Below, piece by piece: positions 26,092 through 63,295 of a stretch of 64,000 nt of DNA. A program made the translations under genes and the position numbers. Source of the DNA: Chiloscyllium plagiosum (Eukaryota); NCBI RefSeq assembly GCF_004010195.1, contig NC_057718.1, forward strand, positions 104,498,828 through 104,562,827. The letters are read 5' to 3'. Under the pieces are notes generated by a model, which searched no databases, had not been told where the DNA came from, and saw nothing but the letters and a program-made list of their open reading frames with translations. Numbering within the stretch: the stretch's first letter is position 1; the number at the start of each line of letters is the position of its first letter.

Positions 26092-26203
26092 ATGGCGGCG
26101 GCGGTGGGCACCTGGGCCTTTTCGATGCCGGCGGTGGACAAGGCCCGGCGGCTGTTAGAGGTGGGCAGCGGGGCCTCGGCCGCCGTACAGGAGGCTATAA
26201 CAG
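26092..26203 (+). CDS. Asparaginase-like gene exon 1 ([10 protein letters not shown]...QEAIT)
   Basis: GCCATGG Kozak context; in-frame TAA 30 nt upstream; donor ACAG|GTGATG is phase 1 and matches the next exon. Confidence 0.85.
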
Positions 26204-29200
26204 GTGATGTATCTCCCGTGGTGGGAGTGCGAACCTTCACATCTACTACAGCAACTCCTCACGTCTCAAAGAATGACCCTCCGACAGTGCGGCGCTCCCT
26301 CAGCACCGACCCTCCGACAGTGCGGCGCTCCCTCAGCACCGACCCTCAATGCATTTGCTTTTATAGATTCATAAGAGTTAAATAACATAGAAACAGACCT
26401 TTCGATCCAACTTGTCCATGCTAACCAGGAATCCCAAAGTAATCTGGTTTCATTTGCCTGCATTGCCCATATTCCTCTAAATCTTTACTATTCATGCATC
26501 CATCCAGATGCCTTTTAAATATTATAATTGTATCAGCCTCCACTACTTCCTTTGGCAGCTTATTTCATATGTGCATTGCCGTCTATATGAAAAGGTTGCC
26601 CCTTGGGTCCCTTTTAAAGCTTTCCCTTCTCACTTTCAACCTATGCCCTCCGGTTTTGGATTCCCTTACCCTACGGGAAGCACCTTTAATGTTTCACTTT
26701 GTATGTGTCCTCGTCATTTTATTAGCTTATATAAGGGTTTAAAAAGTTTTGTTTAATGTCACTCTTCCAAATTGTGTTCATAATCTTGTGGAAAAGAATT
26801 ACTTTTATTTTATTGTTCTGTTTGTGATTTTGGGATATATGGAAATACTTTTCAGCAATCATGTACTTTTGCAATTGCTACGGTAATGTACTGTACAGAC
26901 AGAATGCAAAGTTTAACGGCATGAGATGGATCAAGTCCAACTGTGGTTGACTCGCCTGGACATTAGGCTCTGAGTTTTGTGATGCGTTATGTTCTAGTAC
27001 AAAATAAACTTTTCAATTTTCCAGTCCCATGTGAAGGCATCAAGCTGAATCAAGTTAGCAGCAGAATTGAGAGAGGGAGAAGTTCGAAATGAAGTGTTTG
27101 TTTATAATCATGAGATTTGAGATCCATATGCAGTGTTCACAGCTCAACAGAAATGCAGGTGGTCTAAGTCACTGCTGGCAAATCTATCAATACATCCTTG
27201 GACTTGGCTGTATCTCTTGCTGCAGATAGCACTATATCCTGTGAAACATATGAACAGGGTGAGTTACATGACTGGATTGATGATTTCCAATATCAGGACT
27301 TGTCATCCTGAGACAGGATTTCAGAATCTGACCGAGACATCTGTAGATTTTAAGTTAACTTTTTATTCAAAATATGACATTTGGGGGAGGCAATGGCCTA
27401 ATGGTAATATCGCTGGACTGTTAATCCAGATAACGTTCTGAGATCCAGGTTAAAATCTCACCACAGTAAATGATGCAATTTGAATTCAACAAAGAGTAAA
27501 TCTCAAATGAGGGGTGTAATGATGACCATGAATCAATTGTCAGAAAAGCCCACCTGGTTCACAAATGTCCTTGTGGGAAGGAAATGTGCCATCCTAAACT
27601 GGTCTGCTCGATATGAGACTCCAGACCCACAGCCTATGCTGTTGACTCTTAACTGCTTTCAGGCCAAATTAGGGACAGGCAATAAATACTGTCTCGTCAA
27701 CAATACCCACAGTCCATTAATGAATGAATAAAAACAATCAGTCATGGCAATTACAAAGCTATGTTGTCATATCAAACTATTGGGTTAATCATATCCTTCA
27801 TGACAGAAATGCATCCAATTTATGGGCTTCCAATTTGAGTCTAAAGAGTGTGTGGAGATTTGGAGAAAGTAAACGCCAGGAGGTCACTGGTGGATGGTTT
27901 GGACGAATGATAGTGGCATCTCGTGATTGGAAAGTATCACTGAATCTACGGGAGTGGCCTTGTTCGGCTGTGCAGAGACCTGGGCAACATCAGGAAGAGA
28001 GAGTATCCAACAGCTGGGTATTGAGGAGATGCACAGTCTGAGGTGGATGTGTGAAGCAATCAAGATCAGGGGCTTGTAAGTCAGGGTCCGTGAAGATTGT
28101 AACAACGTCAAAGAAAGTAGAGAAGAGGAGGTTGAAATAGTGTGGTCCCCTGCTGGAGGGAGAGCGAAGGTGGGGAAATGCAGTATGTTGACTGTTGAAT
28201 TTGGGATTGCCATGATGAAGAGGAGGAAGGCCCAAGACCAGGTGGAAAGATCCTTTGTTCGAGAGACTGATATACAGCATAATTGGAAGTGGGGAGGTGT
28301 CTGAAGGGAAGACCATAAGATAAAGGAGCAGAATTAGGCCATCTCAGGAAGGATGTGCTGGCATTAGAGGGTGTCAAGAGTGATCTTGGGGCTAAAGTGC
28401 TTGTCATATGAGAGGTGGTTAAGGACTCTGGCTCTCTACTTGACGGAGTTTAGAAGTATGTGGGAGGATCTCATTGAAATTGACCAAGTATTGAGAGGCC
28501 TGGATAGAATTAAAATCCAGAAGATGTATCCACTCATCGGGGAGATTAAGACCTGACAGCAAATGCCCAGAATGAAGGGATGACCCTTTAGAACTGAGAT
28601 GAGAATTTTCTTCAGCTAGAGAGGGGTTAATCTGTGGAACTCATTGTCGAAGAAGGCTGTGGAAGCCAAGTCATTGAGTGTATTTGAGACAGAGAGAGGT
28701 TACTACGGTGTTAAAGTTCAGATTTGAGACGGTCCACGGAATCCCGAATGCACTCTACCTGTAAGTCCCTCTTGGTTCATCCTGGAGATCGTAGTCTTTG
28801 GGTAGTCTGGAGTAGAAAACATCTTGCAGACAATTTAGTATAATTTTAGTCATCCCCTTTATTTACCAATAGCATCACTGTTACAACATAACACTGATAC
28901 CTTTAAGACAGGTTAGCTAAGGTTCTAAAATCTTCAGAGAGTAGGGTAGCAGCTCTTCCTTTAAGAATCCTTGCAGGCTACTCTCTCCTGTCACACAGGT
29001 TTCCTTTCCAAAAGTTTACAAAAACACTGCATGTTTTTAATTAGACAGGTAACAGTGGAAAGGCAATAATTCATAAGGAAGATGAGTTAATTGACAGGTC
29101 TGTGTGCACTTAACTGATCACTCCTACAGGTCCTGAGCTATCCAGCAGCTGGAAAAAACAAATCCAGCCAAGTCAGGTGCTTATTGGCAAGATAAGTTCG

Positions 29201-47200: not shown

Positions 47201-50200
47201 CCCAGATTACCCCACATATTTGACATTTCCCATAGATTTGATTCACCCAGAGGTTCAAGCCTTGATATAGTGCGAGCAAAAAAGTTCTTCAAGCCAATTA
47301 AATATGTTCAGTATTTCACATCACATCACAACACAGCACCAATTATAACTTTTCACTTCTGAAAGTTGTGCAGCTAAAGAAAAATGATGCAACAATTATG
47401 GAAAAACGTGTTAAATTTCTTTTATAACTGTATTTTACATTTCTCATTATGTTTTGTAATAGTGTTGGTACCCCATTGACAGTGGCTCAAATGGTGATGG
47501 ATAAGAGTGAACATAACATGCTTGTTGGAGAAGGAGCAGTTGCCTTTGCCAAAGAACAGGGATTCCGTATTGAAGATAACAGTGACATGATGACTGAGGC
47601 AAGCTTGGCTGCCTATGAGGTGATTAAACAACAGTCTGTATACACCTGTGACTGACACTCATGCATATAATGTTTCCACATTAGCGTTGTAGATTTAGAA
47701 CAACTAGTTTAAAAAAAAATCTAAAGTGCAAGACCAAAGTTCATTTTTGAGCCCCAGCTAGTATTTTAGCTTGCAGACAATTTATGCCAAAGAAGTTATC
47801 ATGCTGCAGCTTTCTCGCTTAATTGTTATTCTTTGAGAGAAAGTGAGGGCTGCAGATGCTGGAGATCAGAGCTGAAAATGTGTTGCTGGAAAAGCGCAGC
47901 AGGTCAGGCAGCATCCAAGGAACAGGAGAATCGACGTTTCGGGCATAAGCCCTTCTTCAGGAATGAGGCAAGTGTGTCCAGCAGGCTAAGATAAAAGGTA
48001 GGGAGGAGGGACTTGGGGGAGGGGCTTTGGAAATGCGATAGGTGGAGGGAGGTCAAGGTGAGGGTGATAGGTCAGACTGAGGTGGGGGCGGAGAGGTCAG
48101 GAAGATGATTACAGGTTAGGAAGGCGGTGCTGAGTTCGAGGGGATTTGACTGAGACAAGGTGGGGGGAGGGGAAATGAGGAAACTGGAGAAATCTGAGTT
48201 CTCCAGTTTCCTCATTTAATTTACTAAAAGGGGTGGAACCAAAGCAATTGTGAGAAAAGGGTGAGGCTGGTAGAGTAGACATGGTTGGTGATCTAATAGG
48301 TGAAAATTAGGACTGCAGATGCTAGAGATTAGAGTCAAGATTAGAGTGGTGCTGGAACTGCACAGCGGGTCAGGCAGCATCTGAAGAGCAGGAAAATGGA
48401 CGTCTCGGGCAGGAGCTCTTCATCAGGAATCAAATCGTCAAAGCAGACATAACCCTGGTAGAGAATGAGTTAAAACTGATAAATTAAACTGCATTTACTT
48501 CAATGCAAGAGGCTTGGTAGGTAAGGCAGATGAACTCAGGACATGGTTGGGAACATGGGACTGGGATAACATAGCTATTACACCAATGTGGCCCAGGGGT
48601 GTACAGGACTGGCAGCTTGTGCTCCAGGGTATAGATGCTGTTGAAAGGATAGAAAGGGAGGCCAGAGAGGAGGTGGAGTGGCAGTTTGGGCTATGGATAA
48701 CATTACAGCTGTACGTACAGAGGGTATTTCTGGGAGATCGTTCAGTGAACATATTTGGGTGGAACTGAGAAATAAGAAAGAGATAATCACTTTGTGGGGA
48801 TTGTACTATATTCACTCCAGTTGTCAGCAGGAAATTGGGAACCAAATATGTAAGGAAATCTCAATTATCTGTAAGAATAATAGGGTTGAAATGGTATGGA
48901 ATTGTAACTTTGCAGTATGGACTGGGACTGCCATAGTATTAGGAGCTTGGATGGAGAGGAATTTGTTCAGTGTTTACAAGAAAACTTTGTTATTCAATAT
49001 GTAGAACATCTACAAGAGAATGAGTAATACTTGACCTCTTGGGAAATAAAGCAGGGCAAGTGACAGATGTCAGTGGGAGAGCACTTTGGGGGAAGTGATC
49101 ATAAATGTTTTAAAGCTAGTAGAATTATGGACAAGTATAGAACTGATCAAGAAGTTCAAATTCTAAATTGGAATAAAGCCAATTTTGACAGTATCAAACA
49201 GGAACTTTCAAAAGTTGAATGGGGGAGGTTATTCACAAGCCTTTAACAATGAGATGAGGTAGTATGTTCCTGTAACGGTGAAGGGTAAGGCTGGTAGGCA
49301 TACAGAATGCTGGATTACTAGTGACATTAGGCGCTGGTTTAGAAAATGGAGGCATGTGTCAGCTATAGACCGGTCAGATTGTTATGTTTGGTTAGCCTGG
49401 AGTAGTTGGACCAAAAGATCTGCTTCCATGTTGTATGACTTGAAATCATTTAATTGATTTTGATTGTTTCCATGCTGTACATCTCTAAGACTCTGACCCT
49501 ATGACTAAATAGCCCATTTAGTTGTAAACTTCACCAAAAAAGACTTATTTGGGCCTTTCTGTGGAAAGCCAACTAGCACCAGCGAATGCAATTAACAGCT
49601 CGTTTGGATTTTCCTGTGTCGAAGATAATGCAATAGATTGTGCAGAATATAGGCATCAGTGGATTTTAACAGAATTAGTTTTGAATTTCTGCACTGCAGT
49701 GGCTTAGCTTTGTTAAAGAAAAATGAAATTTGAATTGTCAGAGTGCTAAATGTCTTTGACAGCTTGAGACCTATGTTAATGAAAATACTAATTTTCATAG
49801 CACTGAATTATGCTAAGTCATGACATCAACTAATTCAGTTTTATTCCAGCAGAATGAATGAGATTGGGGATCAACCAATTCAGCCTCTCCTTCTGGCACA
49901 AACCCTACAAACCTGGCAACATCCTTTTCATGAGAGTTGAATTCACCTCAGCAGAAATGTTTAGCTATAGAATAAGAGAACTCTGACTTTGTTGGCTCTG
50001 CAACTTTTGAATTCTATATATCCCAACGACTTAGTAGAGATTGTTATTTAAATCTTTGTGATCCATGCTGGCAAAAACATTTTTCTTTCCTAAAAAGCTG
50101 AGATTGGTTTGGTGGAGTTAACTGCCATAACAAAAGAATTTGAAAATGATTTAGAACAAATATGGAGAAAAACAAGTGTGATCAAAAGGGACCTGTCTAA

Positions 50201-53200
50201 TATAATTGTTTGGGAAGATTTTGTTTGTTTAATGTAAATGTGCAGCAACGTCCAAATAAAATCTGGACAAGTAAAACAAAAATAGATAGTAAATTATAGT
50301 GGGAAGTGAAAATGTCTTTCACCTATATCTTTTGGTTTATTTTCTGTGGGAAAGTGTTATCCAAGTTGATTATTATTTAATCATTTGGATTCAAAAGTAG
50401 AAGAAAAATGCATTTTAGTTTTCATTACTGCAAGAATCTGAGCTTTTGTCATCATCAGGAAATCATGTTGAAAAAATGGTAAATGGGGAGTGTTGCTGAA
50501 CAAAGAGACCTTGGAGTACAGGTTCATAGTTCCTTGCAAGTGGATTTGCAGGTAGATAGGATAGTGAAGAAGATGTTTGGTATGCTTTCCTTTATCGGTC
50601 AGAGTATTGAGTACAGGAGGTGGGAGTTCATGTTGCGGCTGTACAGGACATTGGTTAGACCACTTTTGGAATATTGCGTGCAATTCTGGTCTCCTTGCTA
50701 TTTGAAGGATGTTGTGAAACTTGAAAGAGTTCAGAAAAGATTTACAAGGACGTTGCCAAGTTTGTAGGGTTTGTGCTCGAAGGAGAGGCTGAATAGGCTG
50801 AGGCTGTTTTCCCTGGAGCGTCAGAGGCTGAGGGATGACCTTACAGAAATTTATAGAATCATGAGTGGCATGGATAGGATAAATAGACAAGGTCTTTTCC
50901 TTGGAGGTTGGGTAGTGCAGAACTAGAGGGCATAGGTTTAAGGTGAGAAGGGAAAGATTTAAAAAGGACCTGAGAGGTAACATTTTCACACAGAGTGGTG
51001 CATGTATGGTTTGAGCTGCCAGAGGAAGTGGTGGAGGCGAGGGCATAGGTTTAAGGTGAGAAGGGAAAGATTTAAAAAGGACCTGAGAGGTAACATTTTC
51101 ACAGAGTGGTGCATGTATGGTTTGAGCTGCCAGAGGAAGTGGTGGAGGCTGGCAGAATTATGAGTTTGAAAGGGAGAAGGCAAAATCGGATGTAATGGTG
51201 TTACAGTTGAATAAAGGTAATTATGAGGGCATAAGAGAGGAACTGACTAAAATAGACTGGAAGCAGAGGCTAACCGGGAAGACAGTAGAGCAAAAATGGC
51301 AGGAGTTTGTAGGTATAATTGAGGACACTGTACAGAGGTTCATTCCCAAGAAAAGAAAGATTAACCGGGGAGGGATTAGACAACCTTGGCTGACAAAGGA
51401 AGTCAGGAAATGTATTAAAGAAAAAGAGAGATCCTATAAAGTGGCTAAGAACAGTGGGAAATCAGAACATTGGGAAGGATACAAAAGCAAACAGAGGATA
51501 ACAAAGAGTGTAATAAGAAAGGAGAGGAACAAATATGAAGGTAGGCTAGCCAGTAATATTAGAAACAATAGTAAAAGTTTCTTTCAGTACATAAGAAACA
51601 AACAACAGGCAAAAGTAGACATTGGGCCACTTCAAACTGATGCAGGAAGCCTAGTGATGGGAGATAAGAAACTAGCAGGAGAACTTAACAAGTACTTTGC
51701 ATCAGTTTTCACAGTGGAAGACATGAATAATATCCCAAAAATTAAAGGGTGTCACGGGGCTGAGTTGAATATGGTTGCCATTACGAAAGAGATAGTGCTA
51801 GAAAAGTTAAAAAGTCTTAAAATTGATAAATCTCCTGGCCCCGATGGGAAACACCCTAGAGTTCTGAGAGAGGTGGCTGAGGAAATAGCAGAGGCATTGG
51901 TTGAGATCTTTCAAGAGTCACTGGAGTCAGGAAAGGTCCCGGATGATTGGAAGATGGCTGTTGTAACCCCCTTGCTCAAGAAAGGATCAAGGCAAAAGAT
52001 GGAAAATTATAGGCCAATCAGCTTAACCTCGGTGGTTGGTAAAATTCTAGAATCCATCATTAAGGATGAGGCTTCTAAATTCTTGGAAGAGCAGAGTCTG
52101 ATTAGAACAAGTCAACATGGATTTAGTAAAGGGACGTCGTGCCTGACAAACCTGTTGGAATTTTTTGAAGAGGTAACAAGTAGGTTAGACCAGGGAAACC
52201 CAGTGGATGTGGTATATCTAGACTTTCAAAAGGCCTTTGATAAGGTGCCACACGAGAGGCTGTTGAGCAAGGTGAGGGCCCATGGTGTTCGAGGTGAGCT
52301 GCTGGGATGGACTGAGGATTGGCTGTCTAACAGAAGGCAGAGAGTTGGAATAAAAGGTTCTTTTTCAGAATGGCAGCCGGTGACGAGCGGTGCCCCGNNN
52401 NNNNNNNNNNNNNNNNNNNNNNNNNNNNNNNNNNNNNNNNNNNNNNNNNNNNNNNNNNNNNNNNNNNNNNNNNNNNNNNNNNNNNNNNNNNNNNNNNNNN
52501 NNNNNNNNNNNNNNNNNNNNNNNNNNNNNNNNNNNNNNNNNNNNNNNNNNNNNNNNNNNNNNNNNNNNNNNNNNNNNNNNNNNNNNNNNNNNNNNNNNNN
52601 NNNNNNNNNNNNNNNNNNNNNNNNNNNNNNNNNNNNNNNNNNNNNNNNNNNNNNNNNNNNNNNNNNNNNNNNNNNNNNNNNNNNNNNNNNNNNNNNNNNN
52701 NNNNNNNNNNNNNNNNNNNNNNNNNNNNNNNNNNNNNNNNNNNNNNNNNNNNNNNNNNNNNNNNNNNNNNNNNNNNNNNNNNNNNNNNNNNNNNNNNNNN
52801 NNNNNNNNNNNNNNNNNNNNNNNNNNNNNNNNNNNNNNNNNNNNNNNNNNNNNNNNNNNNNNNNNNNNNNNNNNNNNNNNNNNNNNNNNNNNNNNNNNNN
52901 NNNNNNNNNNNNNNNNNNNNNNNNNNNNNNNNNNNNNNNNNNNNNNNNNNNNNNNNNNNNNNNNNNNNNNNNNNNNNNNNNNNNNNNNNNNNNNNNNNNN
53001 NNNNNNNNNNNNNNNNNNNNNNNNNNNNNNNNNNNNNNNNNNNNNNNNNNNNNNNNNNNNNNNNNNNNNNNNNNNNNNNNNNNNNNNNNNNNNNNNNNNN
53101 NNNNNNNNNNNNNNNNNNNNNNNNNNNNNNNNNNNNNNNNNAATAGAGATGTACAAAATAATACATGGCTTGGAAAAGGTGGATGCTAGGAAATTGTTTC

Positions 53201-56200
53201 TGTTAGACGAGGAGACTAGGACCCGTGTACACAGCCTTAGAATTAGAGGGGGTCATTTCAGAACAGAAATGCGGAGATATTTCTTCAGCCAGAGAGTGGT
53301 GGGCCTGTGGAATTCATTGCCACGGAGTGCAGTGGAAGCCGGGACGCTAAATGTCTTCAAGGCCGAGATTGATAGATTCTTGTTGTCTCGAGGAATTAAG
53401 GGCTACGGGGAGAACGCTGGTAAGTGGAGCTGAAATGCGCATCAGCCATGATTGAATGGCCTTACTTCCACTCCTATGTCTTATGGTCTTATATTTGAAA
53501 TGCATCTGGATGAGTATCTGAATAGGAAGTGTTTAGAGGGATGTGGGCCAAGTGCTGGCAAATGGGACTAGATTAGGTTGGAATATCTGGTCGGCATGGA
53601 TGAGTTGGACCAAAGGGTTTGTTTCCGTGCTGTACGTATCTGTGACTATGTAGATAACAACATAATAATAACAGTTGTGATTACTGCTAAGTGACGAGCA
53701 AGCTACCTCGGGAGGGCATTGTTGAGATGTTTGTTGATGAATTCTCTAACTGTCAGAGAGGGAGCAGGATCCAGACAAGGTTCATGCAGTGGACAGAGGC
53801 CCATAACAGCAGAGATGCTGGTCTTCACAATCTCAAAGCAGTCATGGCTGGGAATCGTCCTGAGATGCTCACAAGTCAGTGAGAAGAAAGCTCCAGAAAC
53901 AGGAGGCTGTGGGAGTGTTCCTTAAGAGTCATCCTACAAAGCTGTTGGAGACTTGGTTTTAAGGATCCCATGCTAAGTCATAGTCTGAGTCAGGAGTTTG
54001 TTTTCACAGTCAGAGGGAGAAACATTCTTTCAAGAAGATAGCATTGAGTGTATGTGCAGCAATTTTCCAAAAGGAAGTAATTGCAGCTGAGCCAGAAACC
54101 TTTGCCAGGAGATAGGAATGGATCTTTACTGAAATTTGAATGTCAGTAAGATTATTGCTGAGATGAAAAAGACAAATTTTTTTTCTGATGTCGTGCTGAA
54201 ATTGTTTCAATCGTTATTTTCTAATGGGATACAGTTTTTTATTGTGCAATAAACATCTTTTTTTTTTCTTGAAAGTACACTCAGAGCCTCATAAGAACAG
54301 GTTTAAACTCTGTTATCCTTCAAACCAAATAGGGACCTGAAAAAGGGAGCAAAAGGAGAGAATGCGAGAAGGGAAAACAGTTGAATGAGTGGACCCGAGA
54401 ATGAAGCATATTTCCTTTTCACTGCTGGACAGCAAAGGTCCATGGGCAAAATTCTTGTCTTGTCAGCAATTCAAGTCCTTAAGTGATCAATTGATAGACA
54501 CTTAAGAACCTCAACTCACCTCTTTCTCCAACCACCTACCTTGCTGGTTGATGGCAAAGATTTGATTGGATTTATTGATTTATTCCTCGCTTGGGAAGCC
54601 ATGGCTATGAACCTACTGTGTTGAGGGGTCCTCCAATTGACCCAACCTGGAGGCAGTTGGAAGAATACTTGGTGATTAAGAGGCTCTGAAAATCACTTTT
54701 GCTCTTGCCTCTGACCCTCACCCTGCCCGGGGCGGAAGATAAGGCGTTCTTCGGGTGGTGAAGGAGTGACCACCTTGATGCCTTGGGGTTGAAGGCACAT
54801 TGATGACCTGGGGTTGAACTGGAAGCCTTCTTCCAGAGTGCTTTAGAGAACATCTTCAGGACACCCGCACCAATCAATCTCACTGTACCGTGGCCGAACG
54901 TTTCAACTCTCCCTCCCACTCTGCTGAGGACATGAAGGTCCTGGGCCTCCTCCACCACCACTCCCTCACCACCCGGTGCCTGGAGGAAGTACACCTCATC
55001 TTCCACCTCAGGACCCTTCAACCCCAGGGCATCAATGTGAACTTCACCAGTTTTCTCATTTCCCCTCCCCCACCTCACCCCAGTTCCAACCCCCCTCCCA
55101 TTTATCTCTCAACCCCGAGGCTCCCAGCCTCATTCCTGATGAAGGGGTCCAGCCCGAAACGTCGATTCTCCTGCTCCTTGGATGCTGCCTGACCTGCTGT
55201 GCTTTTCCAGCACCACACTCTCAACAATCATAAGGCAAGCTACTATTTCAATCAAGAGACACTCCCAAAAAAATACAGTGCAAATAGATCTTGGAGTTCT
55301 TATACATGAAACACAAACAGCTAGCATGCAGGTGCTGCAAGTGATTAAGAAGGCAAATGGAATTTTGGCCTTCATTGCAAGGGGTTGGAATTCCAAAGTA
55401 GCAATGTCCTGTCACCGCAATGCAGGATGATGGTGAGACTGCACTTGGAGTACTGGGTGCAGTTTTGATCCCTGTATTTAAGAACAGATCTGTAGGCACT
55501 GGAGGCAGTTCAAGAGTTTCACTGGGTTGATTCCTAGATTGGAGGGCTTGGTTTATCAAGAATAGTTAAACTATTTAGCTCTTTAATCATTTGAGTTTAG
55601 AGAATGAGGAGCAATCATTCTTTTAGTAAAATACCCGATTCTGATAGAATTTAACAAGATAGTGTGGGGAAGATGTTTCCAGCAGTGGGGAAATCTCAAA
55701 CTAGAGGAATTAGTTACAGAACATGGCAACACTCATTTAAAGCTGTGATACAGAGGAATTTCTTCTGAGGGCAGTGAATGTCTGGAATTCTCTACCCCAG
55801 CAAGTTGTGGAAGCTGGATGGCAGTAAGTATTTAAAGTGGAGGTAGATAGCCCTCAAGTCCACAATACTTTAAAAAGCTTTGATGAGCTGGCATGAAAGA
55901 GGAAGTGAGACCTGTGGCACATCAAGGTGATCTTATTGACTGGCATAGCTGGCTTGAGGGGCTGAATAGACTACTTCTGGTCCTATTTCTTGTTCTTATG
56001 TAAAGGATTATCGTCTTATATTTATAGGTTTGGAGACTTATTAAAATTTATGGCATATTCTGGATTCACACATCACTAAATTATGATGCCGCTTCATTTA
56101 TAGGTTATAAATGTATGAAATTATATATGCTTGTCAAATGTTTTACTTTAATAGCATTGCAAGGTGGGTTCAGAAGGGAAATGAGAAAACACATAGGCTT

Positions 56201-59200
56201 CCAGGAATTTTTCCAAGTACATAATTTTCACATGAAGTCCTTAGTTGTGCAAATACTTTGCTTAAGATTTTTCTCTTTGTTTCATTTTTGATGAATTTTT
56301 TTAAAAAATAGTTTCAATTTGTTCAGGAATTTTTGCAGAGTCGCAAGAGCCCTCCCAAAAATCATGACACTTTAGGTAAGAAATGTCTTGCGTACTGTTG
56401 CGAAGTTAGATCGAGTAATTGTAAATTGGGAAGAAGGCAGTTAAAATTTGGTGTTTATAAAATGCTAGGGGAGGGGAGCATTGCATGGTCCTTTTTAAAG
56501 ATGGTGCTTTTTCAGGACTTGGAGATTTAAAATGGACATCTATGACAAACCACTGCAAAGTTTATGAGTAAGGAGAGGACCTGAATTGAAACATTTGTAT
56601 TGAAAGGCCGTACAGTTATCAGGCCAATCTTTTTTTTTAACAAAGACAACAGCCTTTTGAATTTAACCAAACAATTTGAACCAGGCCCTTAGATACCAAA
56701 ACCCTATTAAATCTTATGATTTTGGCAACATAGAACCGATCCTATTCTAAGAAATATTAATATGTCATCAAGGGTATAAAAGAAGGGGGTAGTTGAAAAA
56801 AGACAGAGAGCTAACAGCCATCCGCTAGAGCTAACAGCCCTCAGCTCTCAGAGAAAATCGCTGGCTCTCAGTCATCTATGTATTAGAGAAAGCACCATCT
56901 AAATAACAACAGTACCAATGAGAGAGAAGACATTCCTGACAGATGAATCGACAGAGAAGGCGCATAACATTCTGGAAGGCACGTGACCTGGCTATAATTT
57001 TGAGGGACTAAATTCGGCTTCTGTTTTTGTGATATGAGTGGGTCTTGTATTTATTGGAACAGCATACCATTAAAATCTTGTTTTACTCAGGAATAGTTGG
57101 AAGGGATTTATTTGGTTTGTTAATAGTTTAGTTAATTTGCTCACTGTTAGAGCTAGATAAATAAATTGGTACTTGTTGATTTTAAAGTGAGTGTCAGGGA
57201 TGTACTTCATTTAACAACTAGAATTTGGTGAGTAGCAGGTTAAGCATTTTTCACTCTCTCTACAGATTATAGCGTAGGGGACTCCTCTTTGAGTGTATTG
57301 GTTTTCGGTTCTCAGAGGGGGGAGGTCAGCCTCTGCTTTATAACAATACCAAAATGGAAGCTATTTCCTTATTACATTATATAATTCTAGAGTATCATTA
57401 CAACCTGCAGTCAATCTTGCTAGTTAAATCAATGTAATCAAATAGGTATTGTTCATTTTGCTAGAGCCATGTTTTAAACTTTCTCATTCTGATTAAAACT
57501 TAAAGCATTACAACTAAACCAAAAGCTATCTGGAGCAGAAGGGATTCTTCAATAAACCTTCAATAGTGCAACTAGTCAAAATGTCTTCATGTTGCCATAA
57601 ACTGCAATTGATCCCAAATATCCACAATAATGGTTCTGACAGATAGACAATGCAAGCAGTTATATACCTTTTGGTAGAGTTAGTACGATCATTGAAAGAT
57701 GATGAATAATCTGGAATCCAAGCCAATTTGGCTGAGTTGAAATTAAGTACCAGTATAACAAGCCTGGATAGTTGGTTCAGTTATAATGAAATGTGAAAAT
57801 ACGTTAATTTGGCAAGTTGAGCCTCAGACTGATTGTGTGAAGCCATGCAGATCTCACTTCCTGACCTGGTAGAGATGGCAATATAGTGGCAATTGTACTG
57901 GTGTTCATAATCCTCAAGACTAGGATAATTATCTGAGGAAATGGGTTCAAATCCCACAACAAGCTGGTGGAATTCTGATTCATTTTTTGGAATACTTTGC
58001 TAATTAATAAAAACAACATTGTAGTTGAAATCTCATTTCATTCATGGTAACTGTGGAATTGTCATTGATTGTTCTAAAGTCTCATTTGAGAAGTTATCTT
58101 CCCCAGAAGCAGTGGCAGCTAGGTAATTGAATTTCTTCAAGGTTGCGTTCAATTTTATGACCAGAAAGGAAACCAAGGGTATTGGACTGGGAAGTGGAAT
58201 TGGGACAAGAACCCAATGTTGCAGCAAGTTCAAAAGGCCAAATGACCTACTCCTGCTCTTAAGTCCTGTGACAATTACAGACCCCGTCCTTTTCCAGATA
58301 GTGGGAAAAATAAATGGGGATGAATTTGAGGAATATCTATATGAAATTAACCTAGTACATTAAGTCCACACTTTAACTTCCTGAAAATTGCAATTTAAAG
58401 TGGAACAGCTCTAAATGAGCACATTTTCCCATTAAATCAAATGTAAAAGCTATGGTTGGGTTCTGAAGGACTTCACACATTCAAGAAACCAGAAATTCTA
58501 ATGTTCTACCTTTAAAAATTGAAGGGCTTTTTATTGTAAACTTTTCACTTTGGTAAATGAAATAGCTTGAAAACAATTTAATGTTTGTTCACCTTTTAAT
58601 TTTGTATAGTATTTCCTTCGAACAGCTGAGTCTCTTCACCTGCATCCCAGTCTTTGACCTTCCTGGTCACTGTGGGCCTTTCTTCTTTCCAACCCACTGG
58701 TTCAAATACTCCCCCACTTCCAAAAGCATCTTCCTGCTGTTGATACTCTGTTTTGCAGCCTCTCTACCTTTTAGACTAAGCACTCCTTCTGAATCCGCAT
58801 TGGTGACCCAGGGCACATATTACATAGCTGTGAATCTTAAGTTGTGGAGGAGGATGCAGGACCATTTAAACAAAAAACACATGGGTTATGCCAAACCCAG
58901 CTTGGCATTTTCACAAACCCCAGAGTTCCAGTGTGAGTCATTATCCGTATTTTGAATGGGAATGCAGTTCCAGACAAGTACAACAATCCGAGTCAGGCAG
59001 CACCAGTGTCAGCATGCCAGTGTGTTGGTGAGGGGCAAGTCCATGAGTCAAGCTCTGAAAGCAGCCACAAGTCATAAGGTCACCATTGGGATCAAGGGTC
59101 AAGGAGCAGTTTAAGCCACTGAAGAATAGCATGGAATCCCAACATTACGTTGACTAAAAATGACATTAAAACACGGCGTGATGCTAAGCTTCCAACAACT

Positions 59201-62200
59201 GACCAATGTTAAAGCAAAGTTACACTAGACTGGTCAATGTTTTGAAGGTTGCAGATCCTGCCTTCCCAACTTTGATTTATTTCAAGAATATACTAAAGTG
59301 GGATATTGAAAACCAACTTCTCCTAGGCAATCCCTTGGGACTAAGAATGACTTTCATTGTGGATCCTTATTTGACTAAACAGTACCCTGTTGCTACTGTT
59401 GCAGGAGGGGCAAGTTGGGTTTGAGGAGGGTGTGGAATGCTTTGGTTTTTAACATTCATCTGCTGTCTGGTCTTGACCTCTATGTGGACCTGTTGATGGT
59501 GCTTATCTAATTGTGATGACGCATTGGTCTCATTGGTGCCCATGTTGTAGCTGTACAGGACATTGGTTAGGCCACTTTTGGAATATTGTGTGCAGTTCTG
59601 GTCTCCCTGCTACAGGAAGGATGTTGTGAAACTTGCAAGGGTTCAAAAAAGATTTACAAGGATGTTGTCAGGTTTGGAGGATTTGTGCTATAGGAGGAGG
59701 TTGAATAGGCTGGGGCTGTTTTCCCTGGAGCGTTGGAAGCTGAGGGGTGACCTTATCGAGGTTTAAAACTCAAGAAGGTCATGGATCGGATAAATAGACA
59801 AGGTATTTTCTCTGGGGTGGGAGGGCCCAGATCTAGAGGGCGCAGGTTTAAGATGAGAGAGGAAAGATTTAAAAGAGACCCAAGGGGGAACATTCCCCCC
59901 AGAGGGTGGTGCATGTATGGAATGAACTGCCAGAGGAAGTGGTGGAGGCTGGTACAATTACAACATTTAAAAGGCATCTGTATGGGTCATGAATAGGAAG
60001 GGTTTAGAACGATATGTGCCAAGTGCTGGCAGGTGGGACTAGATCAGTTGAGGATATCTGGTTGGCGTGATCGAGGTGGACCAAACTGCCTGTTTCCATG
60101 CTGTACATCTCTTTGGCTCAATGACAAGGGTATCTGAGGCAACTGGAGACCAAGCGCTGCTGCACAGGTAGGGTTAAGATGTTGAAGCCTGCAAGCTTGT
60201 TGGCATGTGTTGGCTTTAACAGTCCCTGAAAGATCAGAAAAGATATGTTGCTGCCGCAGCATTGGGCACAGAGCCAATGATCCCACCCTGGTGCTGACAC
60301 CAGTATCATTAGAAAGACCACTCATCTAGTATATACAGAGTTTTGGAAGCTCCTCGATGAACTTCTACTTGAAAAGACGTTTGCAGCCTCATGGTCTGGA
60401 TGCTACAAACTAAACATGGAAGTGGGTGAGGAATTGGCTGTATGAGAGCGAATAGTGGAATTATTTAGGAAGATGTGGTCAGGCTAGTTGTATATGTTAT
60501 ATGGACTGTCCCAGGGATTGATGTTGGTCCATCTGAATGGCACAGATTCAGTAACTCTCACATGTCAACTGCCAAATTCTTAGGTCACACGAAAAAAAAA
60601 AGAGTAAGGGTGTATGTCATTGGGTGCCTGTCCAAAAATGGAGGCTGATGAACCTCTGAGCAGGAACTGGGAGTAGACCAATCTCTTCTGCATCACCACT
60701 CCATTAGATCTCAGCTAACTATTTTCCTGTGCTATCTCTCTATTCCATTACATCTTCACAGATTGTCATAGTGCCAAAGGAGGCCATTCATGTCTGCACT
60801 GCCTGTCTGAATGTTTTAAACTAGTGTCACTCTCCTGCCTTTGCCCCATAACCCTCAACATTTGTTTCTGTTTAAATAATCATTCAATGTCCTCTTGAAT
60901 ACCTGAATTGAACCTTCCTGGGCACTACATTTCATATCCTAGCTACTCACTGTTTCTTTCTCCCAACACATTTGTTTCTTCTGCAAAGCACTTTTAGACT
61001 GTGCCCTCTGGATCTCGGTCCATTTACAAGTGGGAGTAGATTCTCCCCATCTACTCTGTCCAGGTCCCTCGTGATTTTGAAAATTTGTATTAAGTCTCCC
61101 CTTAGCCTTCTCCAAGGAAATATAGTCCCAACCCCTCCAATCTTACCTCACCACTGAACTATCTCATCCCTGGAGTCATTCTCATTACCTCTTATTCACA
61201 CGAATGCATTCACATCCTTTATACAGTGTTGCATTCAGGACTGTACACACCACTGCAGCCAAAGTCTAACCGCTGTCTTTTAAATGCTCCACGCTACTTG
61301 TTCTTATACTCTATGTCCTGATGTATGAAGCAGAAAGTCTTGTCGTTATTTTTAATGAACCTGTTTAGCCATCTTATGGCGCACTTTTGGACCAGTTGGG
61401 AACCCCGGTTTCTTTGCTTCTGCACACCCTTTACATCAATTAATTGAATTTAAAATCCATCAACTGCTGTGGGATTTGAGTCAATGTTCACAGAGCAATA
61501 TTCTGGTATTAATATCTGGCATTATTCATTAGATTACTCATTGTACCACTGCTGCTATCTTCTCCAAAAAGCCACCAAGAGTCAATATTTAAAATGAATC
61601 AAGTTGTGGCACATGAAATTCAATATGGGGAAAAGCAGATCTCTCAAACTAGGAGAATACCATCTTTAACAATTTAATGTATGTTTAAAAGAAATGTTAC
61701 AATTGCAGGAATTAGTTCGAATATAATGGACTCCAAGACTAATATGTCTCAAAGCCATTTGTTCGGTATAATGTTTGCTTATGTTTGTTATTAGGTCTGA
61801 TTGTCTTGGATGAGATGGAGAATATAACTGTAGGTATGTATGATTCTGAAATAGCAAGAAATTATGGTCTATCTTTAGTCTGATCCAGAAATTACTTTTA
61901 ATTTACAAACCTGCTTTCAATGGTTTTGCTTTGAACTGTTAAGGTGTATCAACATCTGGAGCTCCATTCAAAGACCCTGGGCGTGTTGGTGATTCACCTT
62001 TGCCTGGATGTGGTCTATATGCAGACAATCGGGCAAGTACCTTCCATGATTTGAATGTGCCAAGTGAGAAAAGTCTTTTCATTTATGTTAATGTTGATAA
62101 GTTGACAATGTCATCCTAACTGAATTTGAAAGCAACAGTGCCATAATCCTTTTCTGATGCAGTGTTGCCAAATGCTATCAAAACAGAAAATGCTGGATAC

Positions 62201-63295
62201 ACTGAGCAGTTCAGGCAACATCTTGGGGAGAAAAACCAAGTTGAGACTTCAGGACTCTGACCTTCTGTAACCACACACGTTACTAAACCTGCACAGCCTT
62301 CCCAGCACTTGGTATTTCTTTACTGATTTCCAGTGTCCACGGTATTTGGCTTTTTGTTCTCATGATCTAGCATCATAGTATTCAAACAGGTACCTGGTCA
62401 CACTTCCCAAATCAATAGATTAAAACCAAGCCAGCATAAATTTGATACAGTTGTATTGACCTTTTTTTTTAAGACTCGTTCATAGGATGTGGGCATTGTT
62501 GGTAAGACTAGTATTGTTTGTCCATCTCCAATGTTGATCTGCTGCCTGAAGCACTGTAGTCTAAGTGGTGTCAGTGCAGCTGCACCATCAAATGGAGGGA
62601 GTTACAGGAATTTGACCCATCAAAACTGGTGATATATTACTTTTACATGTCCAACTGAACAAGGTGTGCCATTATACTAGACAGTGCCTAGGTTATTACT
62701 GCATGCTTTGTCCAGCTAATCCATTTGACTTGTCCAGAGCAATTTTTGATGCAGCCATTCAGAGCAGTTAAGTCAACATAGTTGCTGTGGGTCTAGAGTC
62801 ACATATTGACAAGACTGGGTAAAGAAAGCAGGTTTCCCTCCTGAGAAGAACTTAGAGGCTTCATGACCGTCTCTTTAATCCCAAGTGTTTGGTTGAAAGT
62901 AAATTTCTCTGACTCCTCGTGGTGTGATTTGACCTTGCATGTCCAGACCGCTAATCGGGGCCTGTAACAATATCATATGGTTCATTCCCTTGGGCAATTA
63001 AGGCTCTCTGTGAGAGATGACAAGTTGGACATTTTATGAGCATCCTTTAGTGACTATTAACATGACGTTTGCAGAGCAAGCCTTAATCTAGAACGACAGT
63101 ACTCGCTTCCCATTTTGACTGGGGAAAAACTGGTTGAAGGATCATAAATAGAATCAAAATTAAATTGGGAACCTATAAATTACAAAATTTCTGAAATGAT
63201 TGTTTTCTTTTCCTGGTTTGCTTTTATTTTTAAGATAATTGAACCACAATCAGCCTGTGACAACTGTTACTGTCTCTAGGCAGGAGCTGCTGCAG
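26092..63295 (+). CDS. Glycosylasparaginase-like (N4-(beta-N-acetylglucosaminyl)-L-asparaginase-like) type-2 asparaginase / Ntn-hydrolase, 5' part. Exons 26092-26203, 45537-45675, 47463-47619, 56327-56375, 61795-61833, 61944-62032, 63280-63295; continues beyond the window
   Basis: Spliced frame: [200 protein letters not shown]. Family motifs TW, VGxGGxP, DAxIM, LVGEGA, HDT, STSG and GRVGDSP occur in the correct order; phases are consistent and there are no stops. Confidence 0.93.
26275..26347. repeat. 33-bp tandem repeat (2.2 copies)
   Basis: GACCCTCCGACAGTGCGGCGCTCCCTCAGCACC twice, then GACCCTC. Confidence 0.95.
26383..26740 (-). mobile_element. CR1-type LINE 3' fragment
   Basis: Similar to 6335-6690. 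Confidence 0.75.
27384..27735 (+). mobile_element. Second tRNA-derived SINE family (related partial copies at ~57870-58060 and ~63640-63865)
   Basis: tRNA-like head GGGGAGGCAATGGCCTAATGG, body shared with the other copies, AATGAATAAAAA tail. Confidence 0.65.
28330..28700 (+). mobile_element. CR1-type LINE 3' ORF2 fragment
   Basis: [26 protein letters not shown] matches the CR1 C-terminal motif. Confidence 0.75.
28709..29422 (-). mobile_element. Possible solo LTR
   Basis: TGTTAAAG...CTTAAACA termini; minus-strand AATAAA near 28860; no clear TSD. Confidence 0.4.
29430..30898 (+). mobile_element. CR1-type LINE, 5'-truncated (RT and 3' UTR)
   Basis: [41 protein letters not shown] and KFADD motifs with frameshifts; CTTATGGTCTT tail. 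Confidence 0.95.
33999..35520 (-). mobile_element. Penelope-like element (RT C-terminus, GIY-YIG endonuclease, 3' hammerhead motif) with an 11-bp TSD
   Basis: ORF 34747..35154 contains [29 protein letters not shown]...H; TSD AGCATACCAAA at 33988-33998 and 35521-35531; TG-rich tract 34460-34630. Confidence 0.92.
36102..36464 (+). mobile_element. CR1 3' fragment of a different subfamily, inserted antisense into the host CR1
   Basis: [18 protein letters not shown] end and TTATGTTCTATG tail; host sequence resumes at ~36465. Confidence 0.75.
36537..36748. mobile_element. Penelope-derived foldback insertion (~78-bp inverted arms)
   Basis: Arms 36573-36650 and 36669-36746; TSD TAT(T/C)CCTAATCA at 36525-36536 and 36749-36760. 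Confidence 0.85.
37152..37757 (+). mobile_element. Rex1/Babar-type LINE 3' fragment
   Basis: [19 protein letters not shown]...LQRVV...DPSHP...[15 protein letters not shown] followed by a (TTCAA)n tail. Confidence 0.8.
37969..38296 (+). mobile_element. tRNA-derived SINE, HE1-like, full length, inserted in a CR1
   Basis: Intact A/B boxes (TGGCACAGTGG, GGTTCAATTCC), CpGs retained, (TAATC)n tail; host CR1 sequence resumes after it. Confidence 0.92.
39968..40435 (+). mobile_element. CR1-type LINE 3' fragment
   Basis: Colinear with 50720-51150 and 59630-60125. Confidence 0.8.
40660..44090 (+). mobile_element. L1-clade LINE, 5'-truncated, decayed ORF2 with a T-rich 3' UTR
   Basis: [42 protein letters not shown] and LYADDVLLF motifs, with stops and frameshifts. 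Confidence 0.92.
44100..45380 (+). mobile_element. Old, highly diverged CR1 RT/3' remnant with a small Penelope-like insert (~44570-44692)
   Basis: TTCCAAAAGCATTTGATAAGG (FQKAFDK-like) and CTGGAGTACTGT (LEYC) remnants. Confidence 0.6.
45537..45675 (+). CDS. Asparaginase-like gene exon 2 (ELENDKETG...VAALPG)
   Basis: ttccag|AACTAGAA...CCTGG|gtaggt; VGRGGFP and DAAIMEG motifs. Confidence 0.92.
45937..47049 (+). mobile_element. Penelope-like element with a 14-bp TSD (contains a gap at 46549-46821)
   Basis: TAATTCAATGAATT at 45923-45936 and 47050-47063; [15 protein letters not shown] motif; GIY-YIG snippet; hammerhead-like motif at 46956-46991. Confidence 0.88.
47463..47619 (+). CDS. Asparaginase-like gene exon 3 ([12 protein letters not shown]...LAAYE)
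   Basis: aatag|TGTTGG...TATGAG|gtgatt; [13 protein letters not shown] motif (ORF 47449..47655). Confidence 0.93.
47834..48217 (-). mobile_element. Penelope-like 3' fragment with an intact minimal hammerhead; a second tail fragment lies at ~48300-48430
   Basis: Reverse complement of 46825-47050. Confidence 0.85.
47929..47964 (-). ncRNA. Minimal type-I hammerhead ribozyme motif (Penelope-associated)
   Basis: ATTC-CTGAAGA-A-GGGC-TTAT-GCCC-GAAA-CG-TC-GATT: CUGANGA and GAAA cores, 4-bp stem II, palindromic ACGT stem III, GUC cleavage triplet. Confidence 0.7.
48450..49440 (+). mobile_element. CR1 ORF2 endonuclease-region fragment
   Basis: [19 protein letters not shown]...IAIT.W and [10 protein letters not shown] motifs. 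Confidence 0.85.
50476..53650 (+). mobile_element. CR1 3' fragment, host of a younger CR1 and of a 113-bp tandem duplication
   Basis: RDLGVQV...[19 protein letters not shown]; tail resumes after ~53491. Confidence 0.85.
51162..53490 (+). mobile_element. Young CR1 LINE, 5'-truncated, with an uninterrupted ORF2 segment (RT) up to the gap at 52398-53140
   Basis: About 400 stop-free codons ([29 protein letters not shown]); C-terminus also open after the gap; CTTATGGTCTTAT tail; same subfamily as 29430-30898. Confidence 0.95.
54734..55222 (+). mobile_element. Penelope-like 3' fragment with inverted snippets at its 5' junction
   Basis: [18 protein letters not shown] is a GIY-YIG C-terminal motif; hammerhead at 55132. 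Confidence 0.82.
55132..55167 (+). ncRNA. Minimal type-I hammerhead ribozyme motif (Penelope-associated)
   Basis: ATTC-CTGATGA-A-GGG-GTCCAG-CCC-GAAA-CG-TC-GATT. Confidence 0.65.
55270..56000 (+). mobile_element. Old CR1 3' fragment
   Basis: DLGVLIH...[15 protein letters not shown]. Confidence 0.75.
56327..56375 (+). CDS. Asparaginase-like gene exon 4 ([17 protein letters not shown]), containing the autocleavage site and Thr nucleophile
   Basis: ttcag|GAATTT...TTAG|gtaaga, 49 nt; HDTLG motif. Confidence 0.92.
56396..57345 (+). mobile_element. Probable solo LTR (950 bp)
   Basis: TGTTGCGAAG...CTTTATAACA imperfect inverted termini; flanks GTAC/ATAC form a near 4-bp TSD; TATAAAA 56775-56781; AATAAA 57160-57165. 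Confidence 0.6.
59540..60125 (+). mobile_element. CR1 3' fragment
   Basis: [24 protein letters not shown]...LRGDLIEV plus 3' UTR. Confidence 0.88.
60760..61430 (-). mobile_element. Old CR1 3' remnant (a similar remnant lies at ~32100-32640)
   Basis: Diverged similarity to the other CR1 tails. Confidence 0.55.
61795..61833 (+). CDS. Asparaginase-like gene exon 5 ([13 protein letters not shown])
   Basis: ttag|GTCTG...GTAG|gtatgt, 39 nt; supplies the 12 residues expected between HDTxG and GxST. Confidence 0.88.
61944..62032 (+). CDS. Asparaginase-like gene exon 6 ([29 protein letters not shown])
   Basis: ttaag|GTGTATC...AATCGG|gcaagt (GC donor); GRVGDSP motif. Confidence 0.92.
63280..63295 (+). 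CDS. Asparaginase-like gene exon 7, 16-nt microexon (AGAAA-)
   Basis: tctctag|GCAGGAGCTGCTGCAG|gtacgt; continues YADNR into the family GAAAATG motif. Confidence 0.82.

What the first reader, a model, noticed from the sequence alone, without database searches (positions are those of the whole stretch)
26092..63295. Signal-peptide-less glycosylasparaginase-like enzyme gene, apparently distinct from AGA, ASRGL1 and TASP1
Seen: seven small exons scattered over 37 kb splice into a stop-free 200-aa Ntn-hydrolase. It has W8, H149-D150-T151, T169, R179 and D182; the last three lie +18/+28/+31 from the Thr nucleophile. Known: the same spacing and the HDT site characterise glycosylasparaginases (human AGA T206/T224/R234/D237; Elizabethkingia enzyme T152/T170/R180/D183), whereas ASRGL1 cleaves at G-T. 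Lysosomal AGA has a signal peptide and a Cys-containing linker before HDT. Here the family core starts right after Met1, an in-frame TAA lies 30 nt upstream, and the linker is short and Cys-free. Inference: a cytosolic, self-activating glycosylasparaginase/isoaspartyl-type paralogue. I recall no such gene next to mammalian ACTR2, so it may be an ancient gene lost in mammals, possibly acting in non-lysosomal Asn-glycan or isoAsp catabolism.
Basis: partly seen in the sequence, partly recalled or inferred. Interest (0 to 1): 0.8.

Follow-up and report, generated by a model that had tools for sequence, protein, structure and literature searches.

The report
Second animal glycosylasparaginase lacking signal peptide
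This shark gene is a real, spliced, ancient cousin of the lysosomal enzyme AGA that has no signal peptide, so it likely works in the cytosol, where it would split the sugar-asparagine remnant GlcNAc-Asn; marsupials keep the gene and placental mammals appear to have lost it.

Summary
Seven exons (26092-63295) plus three beyond the window splice to a 293-aa protein identical to bamboo-shark RefSeq XP_043552616.1, the orthologue of zebrafish zgc:153169. It lies head-to-head with ACTR2 and upstream of RAB1A. Contigs from three public runs join exon 1 to exon 2 and show no upstream exon.

It is not AGA, ASRGL1 or TASP1, which lie elsewhere in this genome. It forms its own clade (100/99) from a choanoflagellate and sponges to marsupials, inside the Trp/HDT glycosylasparaginase radiation. 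A hydrophobic N-terminal extension occurs in 1 of 131 members, against 87 of 91 AGAs.

Catalytic and Asp-binding residues are kept, but the Ser50/Ser72 position is not. "Lost in mammals" is wrong: four marsupials have it. Placentals, frogs, snakes, rays and percomorph fish are absent from the listed hits.

Best reading: a cytosolic, self-cleaving GlcNAc-Asn amidase downstream of ENGase (0.5). Activity and location are untested. It is annotated in databases; ten literature searches found no study of it.

The parts
26092..26203 (+). Exon 1 coding part (M1-T37; Trp8 and Phe10; no signal peptide)
   Evidence: spliced to 45537 in contigs of 3 runs
25815..26091 (+). Colinear 5' leader, at least 277 nt, with an in-frame stop at 26062-26064
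   Evidence: run X1 contig 25815-26203 without a loose 5' end; stop codon
45537..45675 (+). Exon 2 (clade signature TG-x-x-[IV]-VGRGG: two-residue insertion, Ser50 position replaced)
47463..47619 (+). Exon 3
56327..56375 (+). Exon 4: short linker and H149-D150|T151, the predicted cleavage site and nucleophile
   Evidence: intron position after HDT[IL]G shared with shark AGA
61795..61833 (+). Exon 5
61944..62032 (+). Exon 6 (T169, G171, R179, D182); followed by a GC-AG intron
63280..63295 (+). Exon 7, a 16-nt micro-exon
63296..64000 (+). Start of intron 7. The gene runs on beyond the window: exon 8 (window numbering continued: 65499-65566; T202, G203, G205), exon 9 (67030-67134) and exon 10 with the TAA stop (72492-72599)
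25587..26091 (.). 505 bp between the two ATGs: CpG-rich, likely bidirectional promoter shared with ACTR2
   Evidence: CpG observed/expected 0.97-1.2 in 200-bp bins from 25600 to 26200; divergent spliced contigs; motifs
25539..25586 (-).

Best explanation
The gene encodes a 293-residue glycosylasparaginase-type enzyme without a signal peptide, which likely stays in the cytosol, is predicted to cut itself at Asp150-Thr151, and would then split free GlcNAc-Asn. Shown: gene structure, exon 1-2 splicing, absence of an N-terminal extension across the clade, a separate clade, and the conserved residues. Inferred from AGA-family chemistry: two precursors pair and self-cleave into alpha (about 15.6 kDa) and beta (about 15.1 kDa) chains, (alpha-beta)2. 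Thr151 attacks the beta-amide, Arg179 and Asp182 hold the free alpha-carboxyl and alpha-amino groups, and Thr202 with the neighbouring glycines forms the oxyanion hole. Trp8 lines the sugar side. [quoted passage not shown] Inferred role: clearing the GlcNAc-Asn left when cytosolic ENGase and peptidases degrade retrotranslocated glycoproteins, a pool that lysosomal AGA does not readily reach. Side activity on L-Asn is likely, as in other glycosylasparaginases.
For: Best solved relative by sequence (E 5e-49, against 5e-26 for human ASRGL1) and by fold (TM 0.91, rmsd 1.9 A, against 0.82-0.84 for ASRGL1; model pLDDT 89.9) is Elizabethkingia glycosylasparaginase. Of the 8 residues that PMC13204146 predicts by docking to bind substrate (passages), 7 align identically; the eighth, Q254, is E249 and is called variable there. 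Trp8 is present in 131 of 131 and Phe10 in 130 of 130 clade rows covering the column. All 12 key residues are intact in 89 of 107 near-full-length rows; most exceptions are gaps or local misalignments. The tree places the clade inside the Trp/HDT radiation, 100/100 apart from ASRGL1/IaaA. 112 of 131 members have 10 or fewer residues before the Trp and 1 of 131 has a hydrophobic extension, against 87 of 91 AGAs. The linker has a median of 14 residues against 48, with two or more Cys in 2 of 135 against 94 of 94. Precedent: L. casei AsnA2 lacks a signal peptide, self-processes and hydrolyses GlcNAc-Asn (PMC6960285, passages). 5 of 12 bacterial Trp-type loci have a glycoside hydrolase nearby, against 0 of 8 HGG-type loci (only part of the ORFs scanned). 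ENGase (GH85) exons exist in this genome. GlcNAc-Asn is proposed to arise and accumulate in the cytosol (PMC8863169, passages). Homodimer model: score 0.92, best of 3 controls 0.00, runs agree in at least 97% of contacts, pLDDT at least 91; this mark was reached by 21 of 30 solved homo-pairs and 0 of 23 single chains (eukaryotes 17 of 29). Like complexes are solved, so the pass may be from memory.
Against: No activity, processing or location data. The Ser/Thr that human AGA uses to hydrogen-bond the nucleophile (position 72; PMC5524358, passages) is S or T in 95 of 96 AGAs, but I, V, F, L or H in 106 of 107 clade rows (one row unmatched). It comes with a two-residue insertion and Tyr-to-Arg next to it, so the loop at the pocket mouth differs and the substrate may differ. 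The same paper shows wasp AGAs with Lys or Glu there are still active. The enzyme seems dispensable: no listed hit from placentals, birds, frogs, snakes, turtles, rays or percomorph fish, groups that presumably keep ENGase (recalled). Glycosylasparaginases also hydrolyse Asn, so sequence cannot fix the physiological substrate. The signal-peptide test was a hydrophobicity proxy, not SignalP; internal targeting signals were not tested. The bacterial neighbourhood signal concerns other clades at 35-39% identity.
Confidence: 0.5

Rival explanations
1. It is a cytosolic beta-aspartyl amidase whose natural substrates are isoaspartyl dipeptides or L-asparagine. It would overlap with ASRGL1, and that redundancy would explain the repeated losses.
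For: Same Asp-binding pocket as ASRGL1 (R, D, T, G). No signal peptide. The pocket-mouth loop differs from all AGAs. Apparent losses in several vertebrate groups. Glycosylasparaginases hydrolyse Asn as well.
Against: It lacks the HGG motif and G|T site of ASRGL1/IaaA and keeps Trp8 and Phe10 in every row that covers them. The tree and the fold put it with glycosylasparaginases. The shark keeps an intact 310-aa ASRGL1.
Confidence: 0.28
2. It acts on another beta-aspartyl-amide metabolite or a larger glycoasparagine, or it processes only with an activator, because its remodelled loop (insertion, loss of Ser50, GRGG) changes the leaving-group site or the activation step.
For: The loop signature is conserved across the clade: R52 in 131 of 138 rows, insertion columns filled in 137 rows. 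Position 72 is tied to catalysis in human AGA.
Against: No candidate substrate. Wasp AGAs tolerate a change at this position. All other activation residues (H, D, T, T169, W8) are kept.
Confidence: 0.15
3. It is a divergent lysosomal AGA copy, with a signal peptide supplied by an unrecognised upstream exon or with non-classical import into lysosomes.
For: RefSeq gives it AGA's name. It shares the MxFxPS[FY] motif and one intron position with AGA. A sister relationship to AGA is not rejected (p-AU 0.45). One marsupial model (P0060) has a hydrophobic upstream extension.
Against: In-frame upstream stop; colinear leader without a loose end; 112 of 131 members start within 10 residues of the Trp. 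It forms its own 100/99 clade outside AGA, and the sponge Sycon has both (P0269 and P0193). The shark has two true AGA copies on another contig. No linker disulfide cysteines.
Confidence: 0.05

Closest known systems
Elizabethkingia (Flavobacterium) meningoseptica glycosylasparaginase (PDB 1P4K, 9GAA)
   Same: 35% identity, TM 0.91. W11, F13, HDT, T170, G172, R180, D183, T203, G204 and G206 align identically; short Cys-free linker.
   Different: It has a 36-residue signal peptide (PMC13204146). It has Ser50 where the shark protein has Val after a two-residue insertion.
Human and vertebrate lysosomal AGA (EC 3.5.1.26)
   Same: Trp, HDT, Arg/Asp pocket, TGDGD and MxFxPS[FY] motifs; one intron at the same position and phase; 38-40% identity to shark and shrew AGA.
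   Different: No signal peptide, linker 14 versus 48 residues, no linker Cys pair, Ser72 position replaced, STSG versus STNG, separate clade and locus, 8 of 9 introns elsewhere.
Lacticaseibacillus casei AsnA2 (intracellular glycosylasparaginase)
   Same: No signal peptide, self-processing, hydrolyses GlcNAc-Asn inside the cell (PMC6960285). This is the working precedent.
   Different: Bacterial. The Firmicute/Bifidobacterium relatives I retrieved are 35-39% identical, form another clade and keep Ser before VG. AsnA2 itself was not in my set.
ASRGL1 / E. coli IaaA (isoaspartyl peptidase/L-asparaginase)
   Same: No signal peptide (ASRGL1's cytosolic location is recalled), same fold and Asp pocket, 34% identity to shark ASRGL1.
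   Different: HGG motif, G|T site, no TW-x-F motif; separated from the clade by a 100/100 branch.
Zebrafish zgc:153169 (LOC767799)
   Same: Orthologue: 62-64% identity. Two teleost gene models fused to Rab1a point to the same downstream neighbour.
   Different: None of kind. It is listed as uncharacterised.

Membership tests
Class 2 asparaginase / Ntn-hydrolase (Pfam PF01112) | Profile match over the domain | tested here: met
   221 bits, E 2e-65, cut-off 27
Class 2 asparaginase / Ntn-hydrolase (Pfam PF01112) | Four-layer alpha-beta-beta-alpha fold | tested here: met
   AlphaFold2 model, pLDDT 89.9; TM 0.91 to 1P4K. A prediction, not a structure.
Class 2 asparaginase / Ntn-hydrolase (Pfam PF01112) | Autoproteolysis exposing an N-terminal Thr | not testable with these tools
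   T151 aligns with Elizabethkingia T152; cleavage itself not observable here
Class 2 asparaginase / Ntn-hydrolase (Pfam PF01112) | Dimer of precursors, (alpha-beta)2 | tested here: inconclusive
   Model score 0.92 versus 0.00 for the best control, but solved look-alikes exist
Glycosylasparaginase type (EC 3.5.1.26) | N-terminal Trp (W11 / human W34) | tested here: met
   131 of 131 rows covering the column
Glycosylasparaginase type (EC 3.5.1.26) | His-Asp|Thr cleavage site | tested here: met
   H149-D150-T151; H 134 of 142, D 135 of 141, T 134 of 138
Glycosylasparaginase type (EC 3.5.1.26) | Asp-binding and oxyanion residues T170, G172, R180, D183, T203, G204, G206 | tested here: met
   T169, G171, R179, D182, T202, G203, G205
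Glycosylasparaginase type (EC 3.5.1.26) | Ser/Thr at position 50 (human 72) bonding the nucleophile | tested here: not met
   I, V, F, L or H in 106 of 107 rows, versus S/T in 95 of 96 AGAs. Not universal among active AGAs.
Glycosylasparaginase type (EC 3.5.1.26) | Hydrolysis of GlcNAc-Asn | not testable with these tools
   Needs an assay
Lysosomal AGA orthologues | N-terminal signal peptide | tested here: not met
   1 of 131 versus 87 of 91 by a hydrophobicity proxy; upstream stop and colinear leader
Lysosomal AGA orthologues | Long linker with a cysteine pair | tested here: not met
   Median 14 versus 48 residues; two or more Cys in 2 of 135 versus 94 of 94
Lysosomal AGA orthologues | Nests in the AGA clade | tested here: not met
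   Separate clades, 100/99 and 100/100; sister relation unresolved, p-AU 0.45
ASRGL1 / IaaA | HGG motif and Gly|Thr site | tested here: not met
   GTWAF and HDT instead; shark ASRGL1 is on contig C21
TASP1 | Orthology to taspase 1 (KHPGRVGQ motif as seen) | tested here: not met
   Query has KDPGRVGD; 23% structural identity; separate TASP1-like exons at C9:100.58-100.62 Mb. TASP1 was not included in the trees.

The most novel reading that the evidence does not exclude
Animals inherited from their single-celled ancestors a cytosolic glycosylasparaginase that is the missing last step of the ENGase branch of cytosolic N-glycoprotein breakdown. Placental mammals lost it, which is why GlcNAc-Asn piles up in human NGLY1 deficiency; zebrafish and marsupials still have it, and the enzyme could clear that metabolite in patient cells.
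Probability: 0.3. Interest if true: 0.8.

Novelty: new variant of a known kind. Interest (0 to 1): 0.55.

Why it matters
Human class 2 asparaginases are listed as three: AGA, ASRGL1 and TASP1 (PMC9140057, passages). This is a further, older-than-animals lineage that databases label with AGA's name. [quoted passage not shown] A cytosolic GlcNAc-Asn amidase in fish would make the fate of that metabolite directly testable in zebrafish. It would caution against reading fish NGLY1 or AGU models as human-like for this metabolite. It would also offer a small enzyme without the linker disulfides or signal peptide as a tool to ask whether GlcNAc-Asn itself is harmful. If it is only a redundant isoaspartyl amidase, it is a tidy case of repeated gene loss and an annotation fix.

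Tried and rejected
- Laying four contig sets on 44001-64000 at 85% likeness was swamped by repeats; no exon junction was readable.
- The run search listed no holder on record as RNA. About 2% of raw run X19 put 5 reads on the ACTR2 exon and none on exon 1. Neither is evidence on expression.
- A scan of prokaryote genomes with the clade profile (80 of 464 loci kept) gave nothing above 43% identity and no bacterial member of the clade, so no recent transfer is indicated.
- The quick tree grouped the clade with algal signal-less relatives (SH-aLRT 86-89); the careful tree dissolved this. I make no claim on its sister group.
- The ESM Atlas returned only generic glycosylasparaginase/asparaginase clusters. 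NCBIfam gave only a below-cut-off beta-aspartyl-peptidase hit.
- Earlier findings: none, by sequence or by words.
- Peroxisomal C-terminal signal: 3 of 129 proteins, all crocodilian; rejected.
- A second genomic hit on C19 is an orphan exon-3 fragment, not a paralogue.
- One shared intron with AGA is within what chance could give (my rough estimate is about 0.1) and is not used as proof of common origin.
- The PMC2997002 hit for '153169' was a spurious digit match.
- The enzyme-substrate structure papers (PMC1865511, PMC5504686, PMC4271792, PMC450236) were not held, so sugar contacts of Trp and Ser50 are recalled, not read.
- The VIA-align second look was not obtained.
Full report
OBSERVATION. 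The window is G000:C9:104498828-104562827. A search with exon 3 returned RefSeq proteins of Chiloscyllium plagiosum on a contig of the same length as C9, at 100% identity. Mapping isoform X2 (P0016, XP_043552616.1, 293 aa) on the window and the next 100 kb gave ten coding exons, whose splice is identical to P0016 and ends in TAA. Exons 8-10 lie beyond it (window numbering continued: 65499-65566, 67030-67134, 72492-72599). Intron 6 is GC-AG and exon 7 is 16 nt.

TRANSCRIPTS. On 25390-26265, contigs of runs X1 and X2 (one study) and X5 (another) stop matching at 26203 and continue with the first 30 bases of exon 2, across a 19.3-kb intron. The X1 contig is colinear back to 25815 with no loose 5' end. 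These runs are only guessed to be RNA, but a spliced junction cannot come from this locus as DNA, and the genome search showed no processed copy. Raw run X19 (about 2% read) gave no read on exon 1. The lay on exons 2-7 failed through repeats, so those junctions rest on the RefSeq model and on colinearity with 26 orthologues.

NEIGHBOURS. An actin-related gene (ACTR2, name recalled) starts at 25586 on the minus strand, 505 bp from this ATG, across a CpG-rich stretch. Rab1 exons follow on the plus strand at extended positions 84565-112127. Two teleost gene models fuse this protein to Rab1a (P0099, P0116), which points to the same downstream neighbour in fish. RAB1A and ACTR2 are adjacent in human (recalled), so that interval is where remnants should be sought.

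IT IS NOT AGA, ASRGL1 OR TASP1. The Pfam search of the genome found other family loci. There are two tandem AGA genes on C2; one is P0226, with a hydrophobic N-terminus. An intact 310-aa ASRGL1 lies on C21, and TASP1-like exons at C9:100.6 Mb. P0016 is 38% identical to shark AGA and 34% to shark ASRGL1, but 62% to zebrafish zgc:153169 and 65% to an opossum protein. A 178-row FastTree and a 60-row IQ-TREE LG+C20 tree (rows chosen from it) give one clade, support 100/99, beside an AGA clade at 100/100. Both lie inside the Trp/HDT radiation, separated from ASRGL1/IaaA at 100/100. TASP1 was not in the trees. Whether the clade is sister to AGA is open (p-AU 0.45). One of nine introns matches an AGA intron in position and phase, which is weak evidence.

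RANGE. Named members include the choanoflagellate Didymoeca costata, the sponges Oopsacas and Sycon and three molluscs. One search adds corals, Nematostella, Lingula, amphioxus, sharks, coelacanth, bichirs, sturgeon, gar, bowfin, many teleosts, salamanders, lizards and crocodilians. Sycon has both this gene and AGA, so the split predates animals or lies at their base. One search listed 120 of 1439 hits, 113 with a species name, down to 50%-identical corals. By my hand count 5 rows are marsupials (4 species) and none is a placental, monotreme, bird, turtle, snake, frog, ray or percomorph fish. As a control, the 120 listed rows (of 1194) of the AGA search held about 44 percomorphs, 8 frogs, 4 snakes, 4 rays, 1 turtle, 1 placental and no bird (hand count). 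Repeated loss is therefore likely, but it is inferred from annotated proteins clustered at 90% with 8000 candidates scored, not from genomes. No bacterial member was found. Other signal-less eukaryotic relatives (Cyanophora, Cyanidium) form separate branches.

NO SIGNAL PEPTIDE. Of 143 clade rows, 131 start with Met and cover the Trp column. Of these, 112 have ten or fewer residues before it and one has a hydrophobic extension. Of 96 full-length AGAs, 91 qualify and 87 have one. The linker before the cleavage site has a median of 14 residues against 48, with two or more Cys in 2 of 135 against 94 of 94. This is a proxy, not SignalP. Cytosolic location is an inference.

ACTIVE SITE. The closest solved protein is Elizabethkingia glycosylasparaginase, by sequence and by fold (TM 0.91). 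W11, F13, H150-D151-T152, T170, G172, R180, D183, T203, G204 and G206 correspond to W8, F10, H149-D150-T151, T169, G171, R179, D182, T202, G203 and G205. All 12 tested positions are intact in 89 of 107 near-full-length rows. Mutating W11, T152, G172, R180, D183 or G204 leaves about 3-4% activity in the bacterial enzyme (PMC13204146, passages and table). The clear difference is the loop before VG. AGAs have Ser/Thr there in 95 of 96; this clade has a hydrophobic residue or His in 106 of 107, after a two-residue insertion, and GRGG for GYGG. Human Ser72 at this position bonds the nucleophile, yet wasp AGAs with Lys or Glu are active (PMC5524358, passages). A homodimer model scored 0.92 against 0.00 for the best of three controls (contact agreement at least 97%, pLDDT at least 91; mark reached by 21 of 30 solved pairs and 0 of 23 single chains). 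It may reflect memory of solved homologues.

MECHANISM. I commit, at 0.5, to a cytosolic glycosylasparaginase. The precursor dimer would cleave at D150|T151 into chains of about 15.6 and 15.1 kDa and hydrolyse free GlcNAc-Asn to Asp and amino-GlcNAc. The substrate would come from ENGase (GH85 exons on C24) and peptidases acting on retrotranslocated glycoproteins, the route proposed for GlcNAc-Asn accumulation in NGLY1 deficiency (PMC8863169, passages; PMC8997433, passages). L. casei AsnA2 is the precedent for a signal-less enzyme doing this inside a cell (PMC6960285, passages). Among bacterial loci, 5 of 12 Trp-type and 0 of 8 HGG-type had a glycoside hydrolase among the scanned neighbours (82 of 134 ORFs scanned; two HGG-type loci left out). 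Rivals are an isoaspartyl/Asn amidase redundant with ASRGL1 (0.28), another substrate or activator-dependent processing (0.15) and a lysosomal AGA copy (0.05).

NOVELTY. The gene is annotated: zgc:153169, and AGA or AGA-like names in RefSeq. Ten searches of the held literature found no study of it, and six phrasings of 'cytosolic glycosylasparaginase' found no paper. Subscription journals are mostly not held. A review lists three human members (PMC9140057, passages). The 2026 Asparaginase Database classifies UniRef sequences into 40 families (PMC13425635, parts 1-2 of 3 read) and may already give this clade a number; its pages and supplements could not be seen. The supplement of a screen for genes lost in eutherians (PMC3296468; main text searched) was also unreadable, but that screen started from chicken genes. 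PMC8256714 and PMC12525304 were seen as passages.

VERDICT. A real, conserved, apparently unstudied paralogue: a new variant of a known kind. Interest 0.55.

Noticed in passing
L021:1496-1499 (just beyond the window; window numbering continued 65496-65499): RefSeq isoform X1 is reproduced exactly by a TG acceptor three bases upstream of the AG acceptor of exon 8, adding one Gly just before the T-G-D-G motif. The same extra Gly appears in Hemiscyllium and Carcharodon models. A conserved non-canonical TG acceptor or a shared annotation artefact.
   Followed up: partly
window 62033-63295: A GC-AG intron followed by a 16-nt micro-exon. Models lacking the exon 7-8 segment in frame exist in two sharks, a lizard and axolotl (P0008, P0011, P0093, P0103); they would lose T202-G205 and should be inactive.
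   Followed up: partly
window 25746-25820: Three 29-bp-spaced copies of ATTGACGT (two followed by GGGCGG), plus CCAAT, CCGGAA and TTCCGG motifs, between the divergent ATGs. CRE-, Sp1- and ETS-like by recall, typical of bidirectional promoters. An in-frame ATG-ATT-TAA minimal uORF also lies in the leader.
   Followed up: no
G000:C2:18,666,000-18,732,000 (L111-L120): AGA is tandemly duplicated in this shark, with an extra isolated copy of exon 2 at about 18,694,500.
   Followed up: partly
G000:C19:2,753,477-2,753,802 (L123): A 345-bp orphan copy of part of exon 3 and the start of intron 3, 79% identical, with no other exon within about 25-35 kb.
   Followed up: yes
G000:C3:44,426,097 (L010), C44:11,111,821 (L009), C78236 (L020): Further ASRGL1-like exons. 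C44 and C78236 resemble copies of C21 exons (C78236 has two stops); C3 is more divergent and may be another paralogue.
   Followed up: no
P0313, P0312, P0291 and relatives: Two more eukaryotic glycosylasparaginase-type branches outside AGA (Cyanophora, Cyanidium, Mallomonas). One mostly lacks N-terminal extensions (8 of 11), so signal-less forms may be widespread in algae and protists.
   Followed up: partly
window 26270-26345, 44001-60700 (scattered), and N runs at 24403-25387, 46549-46821, 52398-53141: The introns are dense in high-copy interspersed repeats and hold assembly gaps; the largest gap lies in the first ACTR2 intron.
   Followed up: no
P0372: A protein with a twin-arginine-like N-terminus, suggesting a bacterial origin, falls inside the eukaryotic AGA clade in both trees. 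Unnamed; not examined.
   Followed up: no
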